Assembly: GCA_951406725.2 (NCBI GenBank)
Contig: OX597830.1
Span: forward strand, 66,712,001 to 66,776,000
Length of the DNA: 64,000 nt
Direction: 5' to 3'
Source: Octopus vulgaris
Lineage: Eukaryota
This document shows positions 2,790 to 62,844 of this stretch, one piece after another. Under the pieces are notes generated by a model that made no database searches, was not told the origin of the DNA, and saw only the letters and a program-made list of their open reading frames with translations. Position numbers and translations under genes: made by a program. Within the stretch, counting starts at the first letter, position 1. Each line of letters begins with the position of its first letter.

Positions 2790-4350
2790 GACTGATTTTG
2801 TTTTTACATAACAAATCTCAATTAAGAACTGCCAACATCACAAATGGGAGTTGCTATTTTGCCTTTCTTTTCTTTCTTTCTTTCTCTTCTCCTCTATCCC
2901 TCTCTCTAGATCTAGGCACACCATCATCATCGTCATCATCCATTTTCTATGCTGGCATGAGTTGGATGATTTCACAGATGCTGGCTAGCCAGAGAGCTGC
3001 CCAGGCTCCAGTTTTCTGCTTTGGCATTTTTCTACAGCTGGAAGCCCTTCCTTATGCCAACTACTTCACAGAGCATACTGGGTGCTTTTTCTTTTGGCAC
3101 TGGTGTGGGTCCTTTATACATGGCAATAACACAGCTGCTTTATACATGGCACCAGCAGGGGTGATTTACATGTGACACTGGCACAGGTGTTTTATATGTG
3201 ACTTGGTACTTTTTATATGGCACAGGTACTTTTTATGTGGGTGCTTTTCACATGGGTACTTTTTATATGGCACTGACATGGGTGTTTTATTCATTGCATC
3301 AGCATGGGAGCTTTATATGAGTCTCATGCCTTTGGTTTTCCTTTGGTTGGTATTACAACAGTTTTAAAATGCTGAGCACTCATCAGCCATTAATAGAGGT
3401 TTTCCATTAATACATAATTTTCATATCTTACAGAAATATGTCCATACTTCCTAAAATTTGCCAGCTGTACACCTGATGCCCTCATCCCTATTTCTTCTTC
3501 CTTTTTTTTTCTTTCTTTCAGACTTTTTCACTGTTCACTTCCTGTGCATGTTTTATTTACTGTTCACGTAGTTTGGGTTACTTTCTCTGATGAGTTGTAG
3601 TGCACCTGAGCACTGTATACAATAAATTCATTATTATAATTTCCCATAGCTAGATATGTTTTCTATGGAAGACTAGAAATAGATATTACTTGTATAACAT
3701 TGACACTTATTTACAAGGGTAACGCACATATGTACATACATGATGGACTTCTTTCAACTTCTATGTACCAGAGCCACTCACAAGGTTTTAGTTAGCTTAG
3801 GGCCCTAGTAGAAAAAAAGCATATCCAAGATAGCACGCAGTGGGATTGAACCCAAAACCATGTGGTTGGGAAACAAACTTCTTAATCCCACAGCCATGCT
3901 TACACCTACTACAGAACCATATGTATAATTATTTATATGTCATTTTGCACTGAATGTTTGTATAAAATTTAATTCAATGCATACAGATAACTTCCCACTG
4001 GAATTGAGTTTTAAGAATCCACAAAGCCCTGTTGAAAAATCTAATTTTTTTTTCTTTATATTATTTTGACTTTTTCTTTCTCTTTTGGAATCAATGTCTC
4101 TCATATATGTATCTGTGTATCTATGAGTCTGAAATAGCAACCAAGTTTCCCTCAAATCACACCTTACTCGTCACGTATGTATGTATGCATGTGTGTGTAT
4201 ACATACACACACACACACATGTATATATATATATATATTATATGTATGCACATATTTCTTTATATGTGTATATACATATATATATATATACATGCCTACT
4301 AGAAATAGTGGCCAAATCTTTCATAATACATGTGTGTGTGTATATATATA

Positions 4351-4518
4351 TATATATAATTTACAAGATAAGGGCAGAAGAAAAATTCTAATGCCAAATA
4401 TGCCGAAACAAAAAATTGTCGATAACCATTATAATTATAATGGTTATCGACAATTTTTTGTTTCGGCATATCTGGCATTAGAATTTTTCTTCTGCCCTTA
4501 TCTTGTAAATTATATATA
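4351..4518. repeat. Loopless palindrome with 84-bp arms next to (TA)n (Penelope-like inverted terminus)
   Basis: Centre ccattataa|ttataatgg at 4434/4435; one mismatch between arms. Confidence 0.9.
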
Positions 4519-4602
4519 AATTTTACCTTTAAAGGCATTTTTTGATATGCTGGCCATTGATAAAATTTTTTTCCCGAAAAATTTTTTATCCTATATTAAT
4601 TA

Positions 4603-5511: not shown

Positions 5512-5907
5512 TATTTTAAAAATATAAATATATGAAAGAATGGAGCTGAACGACGAATTAACAAAATTCCTTTATTTTCGATATATGTTTCGAAGGCTGC
5601 ATATTCCTAATTGCGAAGGAATAAGGAGTACATTATGCCGATGTACTCCTTATTCTTTCGCAATTAGGAATATGCAGCCTTCAAAACATATGTTGAAAAT
5701 AAAGGAATTTTGTTAATTCGTCGTTCAGCTCCATTCTTTCATATATTCATATTTTTAAAATAAACATGCAAATTTCCACATAAAAGCACGTAATCTATGC
5801 CCTAGGCACGTAACTTCAACCGTGTTTTTTCTGATGTGAATTTGCTACCCAGGTATCGGTTAACTCGAATTATCCTTAATAAGATAATTCATTCAACTAC
5901 TCAAATA

Positions 5908-10095: not shown

Positions 10096-10189
<94 letters not shown>

Positions 10190-10196
10190 ATAAGAC

Positions 10197-10375
10197 TGAA
10201 CACGAAAAGTGGACAGTCAACATGCTAGATATAGACGTCAAATCGCCATTCTCCACAAAGATTATGTTCTCAAATAAAATAAAATTCAGCACAAACTTTT
10301 GAGAACATAATCTTTGTGGAGAATGGCGATTTGACGTCTATATCTAGCGTGTTGACTGTCCACTTTTCGTGTTCA
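10197..10375. repeat. Inverted repeat, 78-bp arms and 23-nt spacer, between (TA)n tracts
   Basis: Arms 10197-10274 and 10298-10375; a single CpG/TpG mismatch. Confidence 0.9.
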
Positions 10376-10537
10376 TTCCTTAATTGGTATATATATATAT
10401 TTTAATCTTTGGATTCTTTTTAATATGCTAGTCCACTGGTTTTAATTGACTAATATCAATTTCTACCCTTAATTAATTTTTAATATATATATATATACAC
10501 ACACATACATATATATACATATATGTCTGTATGTATG

Positions 10538-10573
<36 letters not shown>

Positions 10574-10579
<6 letters not shown>

Positions 10580-10898
10580 TAAATATAATATGTGACAGTT
10601 ATTTGGTAGCCATGATAAAACTCTGAGTTTCGGATGTCAGGGTGGAAGCCCATGCCGCCATCTCTTCAGTTATCTGGCCATCGAAAAAATGCTATGAAAA
10701 AATGGTTTTTCATAGCATTTTTTTGATGGCCAGATAACTGAAGAGATGGCGGCATGGGCTTCCACCCTGACATCCGAAACTCAGAGTTTTATCATGGCTA
10801 CCAAATAACTGTCACATATTATATTTACTGATAAATTCCTCTATTTACATAATATCGAGGTCTCTTTCATTCTTTTGTTGTCTTACCATTTCTATCAA
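10574..10898 (+). mobile_element. Penelope-like solo pseudo-LTR: 128-bp inverted arms plus ~65-nt tail, inserted in (TA)n
   Basis: Arms 10574-10701 and 10706-10833 (one mismatch), loop atgg; each arm contains a hammerhead motif. Confidence 0.75.
10727..10800 (+). ncRNA. Type I hammerhead ribozyme motif
   Basis: UGGCCAGAUAA-CUGAAGA-GAUG...CAUC-C-GAAA-CUCAGAG-UU-UUAUC(A)UGGCUA; about 11-bp stem I with one bulge; predicted cleavage after 10788 (GUU); one extra C before GAAA. Confidence 0.7.
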
Positions 10899-10962
10899 TA
10901 TATATATATATCTATATACACACATATATGTGTGTATATATATATACATACATATACATATA

Positions 10963-12051
10963 CAGGGTGCAAAGGGTAAATTGCAACCATTTTATAATTT
11001 TCATTTCGTGCATACACATTGATTGTTTTTGATTTTGTCGATTACACAGTATAGTAGGGTCAGTTGAGCACCATCTGGGAGAAAGACAGTACCATGATGC
11101 AATTCACTCTACCAGAAACTCTGAATTTGTTGGTGAGATCCAGGCCATGATTGATAATGGTCTCTCCAAGTCAATCAGGTCTGTTGCCAGGGACATGGGA
11201 GTGTCTGAGTTTCTCATCAGGCAGGTAGTGCATGGAAACGTTCAGCATTCCTCATACAAGATGGGAAAGGGCCAGTTCTTATCCCAAGCCATCAAGGACA
11301 AGGAGAAAAACTGCACTACACAACTGCACTACACGACTGAATATGCTTTGGTTTTTCTCATACAAGAAAAATTTCTACCAAGATCAGATGGTGAGCACAC
11401 AGAACAACCATTGGCTTGCCGAGTCCCCAAAACATATACCTAGAGTGATAAAAATCAAACATCCAGTCAACATCAAGGTGTTACAAGTGATCACTAGTGA
11501 TGGTGGCTTTATGCCTCCATTCATCTTCCCACACGACCTCAAACTCAATACAGAGGCCTACATCAAGTGTGTGGAGGCGGTAGTGCTACCCTGGGTCAAG
11601 AGGGTAGCTGCTGGAAGACCCTATGTCTGGCAACAGGACTCTGCACCATGCCACACAAGCAGGAGAACCCAGTCATGGCTGTCAGACAATTTCTGTGACC
11701 ACATAACATCTGGCCACCTAACTCACCAGACTGCAACCCCCTTGATTATTATGTGAGGGATACAGCTGAGTGACTGACCATCATAACTCCTTGAACCAAA
11801 GATAGACTGAAGGGAGAGATTATTGCAGAATTCACCAACTTAAACAAGGAGACTGCCCAGAAGAATTGCAGGAGATTCTGAAATCGTCTGGAAACTTGTG
11901 GTTGAAGGCAATGGCAATTTTATTAAATCAATTTACTCTTTAAGTATTTCAAGATATTTTTATGTAATTTTGGTAAATATATCTGTTAAAATGAGATGTG
12001 TTATTTTCATTTGTTGCCTAATTTTGATGATAATTTATTCACTGCACCTTG
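10963..12051 (+). mobile_element. Decayed Tc1/mariner-superfamily DNA transposon (maT/DD37D-like)
   Basis: TA-flanked degenerate TIR cagggtgca...tgcaccttg; HTH-like SIRSVARDMGVS; WFFSxKKNF; WQQDSAPCHTS; frameshifted WPPNSPDCNPLDYY (third catalytic residue D; a deletion prevents an exact spacing count). Confidence 0.88.
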
Positions 12052-12116: not shown

Positions 12117-12391
12117 GCAGTTAATATTACAGTGGGGTAGGCCAGTTTATGGCGCTACCCTGGGTTTCTCATTCATAAGGGATCTATCCTTATGGCATAT
12201 CTTCAGACCCCATATTCTGCTGGCCAGAGACCTCTTTAAAATATTTTAAAGAGGTCTCAGTCCAGCAGTGTTTGGGGTCTGAAGATACACTATAAGGCTA
12301 AATCCCTTATGAGTGAGAAGCCCAAGGTAACCCCGTAAACCGGCCTACCCTACTATAATATATATACATATGTATGTATATATTTAACTGC
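12117..12391. mobile_element. Diverged Penelope-like palindrome with a hammerhead motif in each arm
   Basis: Centre tttaaaat|attttaaa at 12242/12243; arm consensus GGGGU-CUGAAGA-...-GAAA-CCCAGGG-UA-ACCCC. Confidence 0.7.
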
Positions 12392-15368: not shown

Positions 15369-16215
15369 TTATATATATTTATATATATATATATATATAT
15401 ATATCATCATCATCATCATCGTTTAACGTCCGCTTTCCATGCTAGCATGAGTTGGACGATTTTGACTGAGGGCTGGCGAACCAGATGGTTGCACTAGGCT
15501 CCAATCTTGATTTAGCAGAGTTTCTACTGCTGGATGCCCTTCCTAATGCCAACCATTCCGAGAGTCTAGTGGGTGCTTTTTATGTACCACCAGCACAGGT
15601 GCCAGTAAGGCAACTTTGGTAACGATCACGTTCGAATGGTGCCCTTTTTCGTGCCACTGGCACGGAAGCCAGTTGGCTGCTCTGGCAACGATCACGCTCG
15701 GATGGTGCTCTTGACACCCTACTAGCACGGGCACAAGTGCCAGTAAGGTGACGCTGGTAACGATCACGCTCGAATAGTGCCCTTTAAGTGCCACTGGCAC
15801 GGAAGCCGGTTAACCGCTCTGTCAATTATCACGCTCGTATGGTGCTCTTTGCACCCTGCCAGCACAGACGCCAATCATCGAATTTGATTTTGATTTATAT
15901 ATATAAATGTTTAGAAAGTTGTTTGTTATGGTTGGACAGAGTGACCAATGTGTCTACACTTATAAGGTACTTAGCTATATAGGCAACCTATAGGTGCAAA
16001 ACCAATGGTCACTTTCTGACCGGTCAAAGCAAACAACTTTCTAAATACACAACTGCTGTAATGTTTTAGAGTGTCCTTCTTTTTCAGATACATGAGCAAC
16101 TGACCTCTGTGTATGTGTGTGTGTGTGTGTGTGTGTGCGTGTGTGTGTGTTAGAAAGACCATGAGTATTTAGTTTGACTATTTGAATGTCTAATTGTTAT
16201 TTGTTTCATATTCAG

Positions 16216-23324: not shown

Positions 23325-23910
23325 ATCATCATCATTTAACGTTCATTGTCCATGCTCGCATGGGTTGGATGGCTTGACTGGGCTGGCATGCTGGAAGGCT
23401 GCACCAGACTCCAGTCTGATTTGGCATGGTTTTCTACAGCAGGATGCCGTTCCTAATGCAAACCACTCCGAGAGTTTAATGGGTGTCTTTATGTGCCAGT
23501 GGGATGGGTGCCATTTGCATGACACTGGTATCTGCTATGACTGTGATTTTGCTCAGCTTGATGGGTTTTCTTCTCAAGCATAACATAATGCCAAAGGTCT
23601 TGAGTTTTGGGCCTCACAGAGGCAATGACCAAGACCTTTGGCATTATGTCGTGCTTGAGAAGAAGACCCATCAAGCTGAGCAAAATCGCAGTCGTGGCAG
23701 ATACCAGTGTTACACAAATGGAACCCATGCCAGTGGCACATAGAACCACCGATTACACTCTTGGAGTGGTTGGTGTTAGGAAGGGCATCCAACTGTAGAA
23801 AACCATGCCAAATCAGACTGGAGTCTGGTGCAGCCTTCCAGCTTACCATTCCTGGTCAAACTGTCCAACCCATGCCAACATGGACAACAGATGTTAAATG
23901 ATGTTGGTGA
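23325..23910. repeat. Head-to-head inverted pair of RTE/family D 3' ends (about 280-bp arms, 27-nt spacer)
   Basis: Arms 23325-23602 and 23630-23910; both encode DLWHYVxLEKKTHQAEQ and end in (GAT)n-like tails pointing outward. Confidence 0.88.
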
Positions 23911-43605: not shown

Positions 43606-44479
43606 GTACTTTTCTACTCTAGGCACAAGGCCTAAAATGTTTTTGGGAGGGGGTGGTCACTCGATTAGATCAGCCCCAGTATGCAATTGGTACTTAATTT
43701 ATCGACCCTGAAAAGATGAAAGGCAAAGTTGACCTCAGCGGAATTTGAACTCAGAACATAAAGCCAGTCAAAATACCACTAAGCATTTTGCCTTGTGTGA
43801 TAATGTTTTTGCCAGCTCACCTTGTGTGTGTGTGTGTGTGTGTGTATGTGTGTGTGTGTGTGTATAAGGAGAATGATAAATGAACTGAGAAATAAGGAAA
43901 GCTTCTCACAATGCAGAAAGTTTAAAAGACCTTTACATTTCAGGTGCAAAGGCCTGTCTTCATAGATTGGCCTTTGCATCCAAAATCTAAAGGTTCTTTA
44001 GACTTTCTGCCTTCTTAGAAGTTCCCCTTATTTCTCATTTCATTTACTATTCTATCAAACTACAGTGTTCTTCTTTCATATAGGAGTGGCCCTGTGGTAA
44101 GAAGCTTGCTTCACAACCACATGTTTTTGAGTTCAGTCTCACTGCATGACACCTTGGGAGCAAGTGTCTTCTACTATAGCCTCAGGCCAACTAAAGCCTT
44201 GTGAGTGGATTTGGTTAACAGAAACTGAAAGACGCCCATCATGTGTGTGTGTGTTTGTCCTCCACCACCACTTCGCAACTGGTGTTAGTGTGTTTGCATC
44301 CTTGTAACTTAGCAGTTTGACAAAAGAGACCAACAGGATAAGAACCAGGCTTATGAAATAAAAAAAAATGTACTGGGAGCAATTCATTGTGCTAAAATAC
44401 TGCAAGGCGGTGCCCCAGCATGGCCACAGTCAAATGACTGGATTAAGTAAAAGAATGAATGAGTGTGTGTATATATAAT

Positions 44480-47121: not shown

Positions 47122-47375
47122 TGTTGTGTCTGGGGAGAGACATTTTCTTTTTGTGCCTTATAATATAACACACTCACTGGTAAAATTTCCACTTTTTGTT
47201 TTTTCTTATTTTTATTTTCCTAAAATTTTTGTTAGTCAAAACTATTGAAAAGGTTGCAAGACGCAATGAAAATTTTAGGAAAATAAAAATAAGGAAAAAA
47301 AAAAGTGAAAATCTTACTGGTGAATGTGTTATATTATAAGGCACAAAAAGAAAATGACTCTCCCCAGACACAACA
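47122..47375. repeat. Inverted repeat, about 107-bp arms and 39-nt spacer
   Basis: tgttgtgtctggggagag...cctaaaatttt versus aaaattttagg...ctctccccagacacaaca. Confidence 0.88.
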
Positions 47376-61713: not shown

Positions 61714-61880
61714 CTAATTGGCGCTCTGTCAGTTATGATTATGTGGTTTCTAGTTGATCCAGAAATTAACATACAAGTGGCTGAGTATATATATATGTGT
61801 TGGAAAAGCCAATATATATATATATATATATGTATGTACATATATATATATTGGCTTTTCCAATGTGCAATAACTAAGTT

Positions 61881-61933
<53 letters not shown>

Positions 61934-61993
61934 TATACATACATATGTATATATATATGATGATGATGATGATGATGATGATATATATGTATG

Positions 61994-62066
<73 letters not shown>

Positions 62067-62844
62067 GTAACTTAGTTATTGCACACTGGAAAAGCCAGTC
62101 TTTATCTTTCTACTTAAATTGTACAAATTTCACTGACAAGATTCCGTGCTGTACAAATTTATAACTTTTGAAAAGTTCTGTCTGTGCACTCTAAGAAGCT
62201 TATTCCTAAGAAAAACACAGCATGTGTTTATTGAAGTAGCAGGCTGTTATTGACCACAGGGGTATAAGTTCAAACCTAACTTCTACATTCACCTAACCTT
62301 GCTTTTATTACTCTAAGTAAAGACACATTACTCTGTATTGGATTAGTCTGTCTGATAAGTTCCTTTCAATTTTTTTTTATTTTTAGTTGTGTAGAGAAAG
62401 TAATTGCTCCAACAATATGCAAATATCAAAATCTTTTAAAAACTCTCTAACTCATATTGACATAGAAGCATGTAAGTGACAAACTAGAAAAATATAACAA
62501 AATATGTTTTGTATGAAAAAAGCAATACACATATTACAGATGTCGATTTTATTTGATATCTTAATAAAATTTGAGGTAATTGAAATATAAGTATTAATAT
62601 TCAGAATTCTTAGACTTTGTTTTTTTACTTAAGTTTTTACGAAATTTTTTTAAGGTGATTTTTTTCTTCTTTTTTTCTTGTCTAATATTTTAGAATTTTT
62701 GAAGTAATGGTCTAGGAATTTTCACAAATTTTAAACTAGTTATTTTTAAAAGTTTTAACACACATCGTTTTACACATACATGCATACGTACATACAAATA
62801 TGTATGTATATGTGTGTGTATGAGTGTGTGTTTGTGTGTGTGTA

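What the first reader, a model, noticed from the sequence alone, without database searches (positions are those of the whole stretch)
10574..10898. Young 128-bp hairpin whose arm is a complete type I hammerhead
The arms differ at only one CpG position, so the inversion is recent or homogenised. The right (sense) arm has CUGAAGA at 10738-10744, GAUG/CAUC stem II, GAAA at 10776-10779, helix III ACU-cag-AGU, a GUU cleavage triplet and an 11-bp stem I (UGGCCAGAUAA/UUAUCaUGGCUA). The left arm encodes the same ribozyme on the minus strand, so either strand's transcript contains a ribozyme plus its complement. One extra C before GAAA is non-canonical.
Basis: partly seen in the sequence, partly recalled or inferred. 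Interest (0 to 1): 0.72.

Follow-up and report, generated by a model that had tools for sequence, protein, structure and literature searches.

The report
Folded-back Penelope retrotransposon end, masked hammerhead
The hairpin is real but ordinary: it is a short head-to-head double copy of the ribozyme-bearing end of a Penelope-like jumping gene that has made hundreds of such hairpins in this genome, and the long stem is predicted to keep the ribozyme folded off.

Summary
Observation confirmed: 128-bp arms (10574-10701/10706-10833), one mismatch at a CpG, all hammerhead parts at the stated positions. The arm plus its 65-nt unpaired extension is the 3' end (pLTR plus tail) of a Hydra-clade Penelope-like element: sister copies run into a 717-aa RT/GIY-YIG-type ORF with the clade's RWK, DKT and CxCx5C motifs, in 2.59-kb tandems. 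Head-to-head hairpins are a family routine: at least 114 in this subfamily, 313 in a young sister subfamily, controls 0. The extra C is family-wide (C or U in 188 of 189 rows), and helix III equals that of published Penelope-3_HM. Either strand is predicted to transcribe the antisense arm first and bury the ribozyme. Two side results: the arms are the most alike of 63 pairs (0/98 versus median 9.2%) yet share 8 of 8 derived changes, so they were likely homogenised or copied from an aged template; and in the young subfamily fold-back junctions pile up just 5' of helix I (313 versus 29 inside, 16 further upstream). Cleavage and transcription untested. The scan noted this kind of insertion before on other DNA.

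The parts
10540..10573 (.). (TA)n left flank, insertion target
   Evidence: 67 of 88 family ends are followed by (TA)3 within about 16 nt
10574..10701 (-). Inverted short copy of the element's 3' end (pLTR part without tail); carries the same hammerhead on the minus strand (core from 10669, GAAA from 10631, predicted cut after 10619)
   Evidence: outer end matches the family's short-arm end cluster, about 10817-10836 in right-arm coordinates
10702..10705 (.). Fold-back junction / 4-nt loop, 21 nt 5' of helix I on each arm
   Evidence: junction zone is a hot spot in the young sister subfamily
10706..10833 (+). Sense arm: 5'-truncated pLTR of a Hydra-clade Penelope-like element
10727..10800 (+). 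Type I hammerhead motif: helix I 10727-37/10789-800, core CUGAAGA 10738-44, long interrupted helix II 10745-74, extra C 10775, GAAA 10776-79, near-palindromic helix III 10779-87, predicted cut after 10788
   Evidence: compared with File S2 of PMC8557442
10834..10898 (+). One-sided 65-nt tail ending at the family's sharp 3' end
   Evidence: 27 of 44 long arms end at 10898; 33 of 44 pairs asymmetric by a strict cut
10838..10860 (+). Small bulged hairpin (4 bp, 2-nt bulge, 4 bp, 5-nt loop) 5 nt behind the short end
   Evidence: weak (-3.7 kcal/mol), letters conserved in 82 old and 14 young rows without compensatory change; lead from earlier scan notes
10899..10911 (.). (TA)n right flank

Best explanation
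This is a 5'-truncated insertion of a Hydra-clade Penelope-like retrotransposon, made of the element's 3' end and an inverted shorter copy of it, likely generated in one reverse-transcription event at a (TA)n target, and its inherited hammerhead is predicted to be folded off here. Shown: family membership, the link to the coding ORF, head-to-head layout, one-sided tail, (TA)n flanks. Inferred: the element's enzyme cuts (TA)n and copies the RNA from two start points about 65 nt apart; copying stops or turns just 5' of hammerhead helix I, leaving two copies head to head. Inferred: in the parent the hammerhead works as a dimer through its near-palindromic helix III, perhaps with protein help. Predicted: any read-through transcript, from either side, makes the antisense arm first and forms a 128-bp duplex, so this copy would not cleave and is at most a dsRNA source. 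The near-identity of the arms is likely due to one arm overwriting the other after insertion (about 45%) or to recent copying of an already aged template (about 40%); an assembly effect is less likely (about 10%).
For: Own-genome search: 2912 first-look candidates, the 40 scored all 91-95% identical apart from self; sharp common 3' end followed by (TA)n. Copies run from that end into an ORF start and from an ORF end into the arm (L077). A young sister subfamily (arm 81% identical) has stop-free frames up to 717-720 aa in about 2.59-kb tandems and inverted pairs; old-subfamily remnants match it at 44-86% per piece. The ORF has RWK(46), DKT(123), CxCx5C(566), CxxC(669), CxH(700), no CX2-5CxxC, no GxKF/Y, the Hydra-clade signature in PMC8557442 section 11, and shares RMRWKAFFFD, FSDKT, QFDIVDFY with Hydra-1_Obim. 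Head-to-head junction patterns: 114 (old, spacer 40-70) and 313 (young, spacer 10-70), reversed-pattern controls 0. Published: inverted 5'-truncated copy and one-sided tail (PMC8557442, PMC3846280); opposite-strand hammerhead pairs 100-700 bp apart and dimer need (PMC4209133); Penelope-13_HM with a hammerhead on both strands and Penelope-3_HM with the same helix III and cut triplet. Folding: whole locus -241.6 kcal/mol, hammerhead pair probabilities at most 2e-18; isolated arm forms helix III at 0.01; helix III self-dimer -9.8 kcal/mol.
Against: No tree with reference PLEs was built; Pfam and PDB searches did not recognise the ORF, so RT/GIY-YIG identity rests on motifs and on likeness to published Hydra ORFs. 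The tail is 65 nt, longer than the published 30-40. No covariation beyond shuffles. No source copy carrying the window's allele set was found, and sharing does not fall off from the loop (0.10, 0.15, 0.19, 0.09), so neither explanation of arm identity is proven. Folding is equilibrium prediction only; transcription was not shown.
Confidence: 0.88

Rival explanations
1. A selected, regulated ribozyme switch or dsRNA/small-RNA gene: the host keeps both arms identical so that editing or partial transcription unmasks cleavage.
For: Arms are the most alike of 63 pairs despite 8 shared derived changes; core intact; coleoid A-to-I editing is extensive (recalled).
Against: At least 427 similar hairpins; core changes no rarer than flank changes (18/780 versus 53/1962); shared changes include CpG decays that break a helix II pair (10754) and turn a U-G into a U-A pair in a predicted misfold (10783); no host gene recognised among 15 of 108 window ORFs scanned.
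Confidence: 0.04
2. A self-propagating non-autonomous hairpin element (MITE-like or retrozyme-like) copied as a unit.
For: Many short hairpins of similar size; arms of one locus share more derived alleles than permuted pairs (55 versus 15.2 +/- 3.6); a few young junctions recur letter for letter.
Against: Junction sequences differ from locus to locus in the listed matches; ends are asymmetric; the 23-mer with the window's alleles occurs exactly only in its own two arms; no tandem units.
Confidence: 0.05
3. The near-perfect arms are an assembly or polishing artefact of a more diverged hairpin.
For: Extreme outlier; no listed contig spans the hairpin.
Against: 62 other pairs in the same assembly keep a median 9% difference; one mismatch remains; exact contigs in runs X3 (10799-10836) and X5 (10788-10847) carry four of the window's minority alleles. 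This concerns only arm identity, not the element's identity.
Confidence: 0.1

Closest known systems
Hydra clade of C-terminal EN+ Penelope-like elements (Craig et al. 2021, PMC8557442), incl. Hydra-1_Obim, Penelope-3_HM, Penelope-13_HM
   Same: Unit under 3 kb, single ORF with RWK, DKT, CxCx5C, CxxC and CxH; (TA)n target; sense-strand type I hammerhead near the 3' end; helix III and cut triplet identical to Penelope-3_HM; inverted truncated copy with a hammerhead on each strand as in Penelope-13_HM.
   Different: A different family from Hydra-1_Obim (other hammerhead sequence); longer helix I and II; a one-nucleotide surplus on the 3' side of helix II; 65-nt tail; the young subfamily has a U4C core.
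[quoted passage not shown]
   Same: Long helix II, small palindromic helix III suited to dimers, dispersed truncated copies, pairs on opposite strands 100-700 bp apart.
   Different: Their extra nucleotide lies between positions 9 and 10.1; here the surplus is on the 3' strand (either an insertion before G12 or a bulge behind a G10.1-Y11.1 pair); helix I is 11 bp.
Poseidon of Anolis carolinensis (Frangieh et al. 2024, PMC11167929)
   Same: AT-rich target, two 3' ends defining a tail, hammerhead in the pLTR that needed protein to cleave and was dispensable for insertion in vitro.
   Different: Other clade; there the hammerhead overlaps the ORF start, here its core lies about 200 nt after the stop codon.
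Template-switch homogenisation of imperfect inverted repeats (passages of PMC13100816)
   Same: One arm overwrites the other, giving shared multi-site changes.
   Different: Described there for yeast arms of tens of bp; not shown for this locus.

Membership tests
Hydra-clade PLE | Short element (<3 kb) with one ORF | tested here: met
   717-aa frame, tandem period about 2.59 kb
Hydra-clade PLE | RWK present, DKG changed to DKT, GxKF/Y absent | tested here: met
   RWK 46, DKT 123, no GxKF/Y (a DKG at 644 lies in the C-terminal part)
Hydra-clade PLE | CxCx5C linker instead of CX2-5CxxC; CxxC and CxH in the endonuclease | tested here: met
Hydra-clade PLE | CCHH motif absent; no IFD | not tested
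   no alignment to canonical PLEs made
Hydra-clade PLE | Insertion in (TA)n | tested here: met
   both window flanks; 67 of 88 ends
Hydra-clade PLE | Phylogenetic placement of the RT | not tested
   reference ORFs were only read in the paper's supplement; shared motifs seen by eye
EN+ PLE insertion unit | Inverted 5'-truncated copy next to the pLTR, tail on one side | tested here: met
   tail 65 nt rather than 30-40
EN+ PLE insertion unit | Target-site duplication | not testable with these tools
   flanks are (TA)n
Type I hammerhead ribozyme | Core CUGANGA, GAAA, NUH with helices I-III | tested here: met
   one surplus nucleotide at the base of helix II, family-wide
Type I hammerhead ribozyme | Covariation of helices | tested here: inconclusive
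   21 hand-picked rows: 92% paired versus 30-51% slid, but no excess over shuffles (234/500)
Type I hammerhead ribozyme | Self-cleavage | not testable with these tools
   predicted blocked in the hairpin and misfolded as monomer
Rfam hammerhead models | Match at gathering score | tested here: not met
Non-LTR retrozyme | Head-to-tail tandem units each with a hammerhead (definition in 10.64898/2026.07.22.740005) | tested here: not met
   single head-to-head pair
miRNA precursor | Rfam family match | tested here: not met
   all miRNA matches below gathering, generic hairpin scores

The most novel reading that the evidence does not exclude
In Hydra-clade elements the 5' edge of hammerhead helix I fixes where copying ends and folds back (junctions 313 just upstream versus 29 inside and 16 further upstream), so the ribozyme region, or an RNA start right in front of it, works as the structural boundary that mass-produces self-silencing hairpins, even in an actively spreading subfamily whose catalytic core carries a damaging U4C change; the finished hairpins then keep exchanging sequence between arms, this locus being a freshly overwritten example.
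Probability: 0.3. Interest if true: 0.55.

Novelty: new member of a known kind. Interest (0 to 1): 0.22.

Why it matters
The locus itself is very likely an inert by-product and matters little. The family does offer a test bed: a young Hydra-clade subfamily with many identical intact frames and hundreds of fresh fold-back insertions lets one map how Penelope-like elements make their inverted ends, which PMC8557442 names as an open mechanistic task, and test whether hammerhead catalysis is needed (U4C core). Arm pairs also give a clock that exposes homogenisation or re-copying of aged ends.

Tried and rejected
Rfam at gathering and at E<=10: no hammerhead family. Pfam on three element ORFs: none; Pfam on 15 of 108 window ORFs and two homologues: none. 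PDB sequence search: one chance hit, E 0.12. Homologue search: 1022 unnamed full-length relatives, best about 50% identical, no names. Search for a source copy with the window's alleles: none; the two 'rare' alleles at 10809 and 10829 recur on other backgrounds, mostly in one arm only, so they do not mark a subfamily. Arm divergence does not correlate with spacer length (rho -0.03, n 63), and sharing shows no gradient from the loop. Tail divergence does not separate the models (window 0 of 51 sites; 5 of 38 tails also 0). Public runs were all Logan contigs: no listed piece spans the hairpin, transcription, editing and empty-site alleles cannot be judged; the RNA label of X1 is a guess and it covered 18 of 30 bins with family-type pieces. 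One search used a mis-registered structure and is superseded; one search crashed and was rerun. A second tail hairpin behind 10898 (lead from earlier notes) was weak or unfolded in 6 read-through copies: not confirmed. Literature searches showed no paper on this family's junction hot spot or on arm homogenisation in PLE hairpins; subscription papers and Repbase are not covered, and bioRxiv supplements were not seen.

Full report
Observation. The hairpin is as described: arms 10574-10701 and 10706-10833, loop ATGG, one mismatch (10683 G / 10724 T) at a CpG. Core, GAAA, helices and GUU triplet lie at the stated positions on both strands, and a descriptor scan of the whole window found only these two sites. 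The last 65 nt of the finding are unpaired. Rfam does not recognise the motif.

It is the end of a repeat family. The genome (2.8 Gb, 227 contigs; likely an octopus, by inference from the element's likeness to Hydra-1_Obim and from earlier scan notes) gave 2912 first-look candidates for 10706-10900; the 40 scored are 91-95% identical apart from self. Copies end sharply at the equivalent of 10898 and pass into (TA)n. Some run on into an ORF start; one runs from an ORF end into the arm (L077). A protein search found a young sister subfamily: 150 of 10791 candidates were scored, most with the same score, with stop-free frames up to 717-720 aa, in tandems of about 2.59 kb and in inverted pairs. 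Its arm is 81% identical to the window's.

The family is a Hydra-clade Penelope-like element. PMC8557442 (passages, section 11, supplement parts 1-2 and a motif search) defines the clade by RWK, DKT, a CxCx5C linker, CxxC and CxH, size under 3 kb, (TA)n targets and canonical hammerheads. The ORF has these motifs and lacks CX2-5CxxC and GxKF/Y. It shares long motifs with Hydra-1_Obim, whose hammerhead differs, so this is another family. Pfam and PDB did not recognise the ORF and I built no tree.

The layout is routine. A pattern for two cores head to head found 114 loci in the window's subfamily (spacer 40-70) and 313 in the young one (spacer 10-70); reversed-pattern controls gave 0. Of 44 pattern-chosen pairs, 27 long arms end at 10898 and most short arms near 10817-10836; 33 of 44 pass a strict asymmetry cut (some short ends are overcalled into (TA)n). 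This is the published inverted 5'-truncated copy with a one-sided tail (PMC3846280 passages; PMC8557442), and opposite-strand hammerhead pairs were reported in PMC4209133 (parts 1-2 of 4 read). A second hammerhead hairpin of another family lies 1.3 kb away (12124-12361).

The ribozyme. Position 10775 is C in 143, T in 45 and a gap in 1 of 189 rows, so the 'extra C' is inherited; it can be read as an insertion before G12 or as a bulge behind a G10.1-Y11.1 pair. Helix III and the cut triplet equal those listed for Penelope-3_HM. On 21 hand-picked rows 92% of cells pair (30-51% when slid) but covariation does not exceed shuffles. In old copies the core changes as often as the flank (2.3% versus 2.7%): descent, not selection. 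Predicted: the isolated arm pairs CUGA with UCAG and forms helix III at 0.01, while two helix III strands can dimerise (-9.8 kcal/mol); in the whole locus the hammerhead pairs have probability at most 2e-18. Because the copies are head to head, a read-through transcript from either side makes the antisense arm first (from the sequence). Published PLE hammerheads are weak alone (PMC4209133) and, in Poseidon, protein-assisted and dispensable for insertion in vitro (PMC11167929, parts 1-2 of 4). All 24 young rows carry U4C, a change said to lower activity considerably in vitro (passage of PMC3088659).

Why the arms are so alike. Over the 98 sites compared (11 sites fixed by the search pattern left out), the window has 0 differences, the lowest of 63 pairs (median 9.2%); yet both arms share 3 rare and 5 CpG-type changes, while in the other 62 pairs such changes are mostly on one arm (460 single, 75 shared). 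In the 44 pattern-chosen pairs mates share 55 derived alleles against 15.2 +/- 3.6 in 2000 permutations; at that share, 8 of 8 has odds near 1e-7, before allowing for the locus having been picked as near-perfect. No source copy with this allele set was found (nearest other row 92%). So either one arm overwrote the other (template switching, passages of PMC13100816) or an aged copy missing from this assembly was recently re-copied. Sharing has no gradient from the loop, the tail does not decide, and contigs of public runs confirm four alleles but do not span the hairpin. 'Young' is therefore unproven; 'homogenised' is slightly preferred.

Junction hot spot. In the young subfamily three patterns of equal gap width gave 29 junctions inside the 3' half of the hammerhead, 313 centred 5-35 nt upstream of the anchor at the 3' end of helix I's 5' strand and 16 centred 65-95 nt upstream. 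The 5' half of the motif was not sampled and the anchors differ, so this is a three-point profile, not a census. It points to an RNA start or an RT stop at the 5' edge of the ribozyme. Three of the 29 fold exactly at the predicted cut, a weak hint only.

Verdict. Real feature, known kind: a truncated, folded-back end of a Hydra-clade element, likely inert. Earlier scan notes describe the same kind of insertion elsewhere in this and other genomes (none matched this sequence); I had reached this reading before opening them. Interest 0.22.

Noticed in passing
window 12124-12361: Older (84%) fold-back of a second repeat family (622 first-look candidates) whose arms also hold a type I hammerhead, CUGAAGA...GAAA-CCCAGGGUA with a GGGGU/ACCCC helix I; this copy has GAAG on the right arm. 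Coding parent not traced.
   Followed up: partly
window 10174-10400, 4348-4521, 5512-5762, 15910-16045, 23327-23906, 43870-44053, 47122-47375, 61830-62119: Further fold-back palindromes in the window; the motif scan found no intact hammerhead core in them.
   Followed up: partly
L080-L091 (G000, e.g. C3:37221500-37240500, C5:53448000-53457900): Young, near-identical Hydra-clade subfamily with 717-aa frames in tandem and inverted arrays; its hammerhead has a U4C core in 24 of 24 rows, which is predicted to weaken both catalysis and the CUGA/UCAG misfold (helix III probability 0.3 versus 0.01).
   Followed up: partly
L209 (G000:C2:44676839-44676872) and two more loci: Three perfect palindromes fold exactly at the predicted cleavage site, as expected if a self-cleaved RNA was the template; 3 of 29, weak.
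   Followed up: no
several loci: Repeated junctions at the helix III palindrome, as expected for snap-back priming.
   Followed up: no
L172:1435-2264 (G000:C9): Three copies of the arm; two face tail to tail across a long microsatellite and share otherwise rare alleles, suggesting a secondary inverted duplication or transfer.
   Followed up: partly
L024, L028, L130, L103: Other hairpins whose arms are closer to each other (97-99%) than to any other held copy (95-96%): further candidates for homogenisation or young insertion.
   Followed up: partly
window 10964-11756: A high-copy repeat with two overlapping open frames begins right after the right flank (high depth); no Pfam match; not identified.
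   Followed up: no
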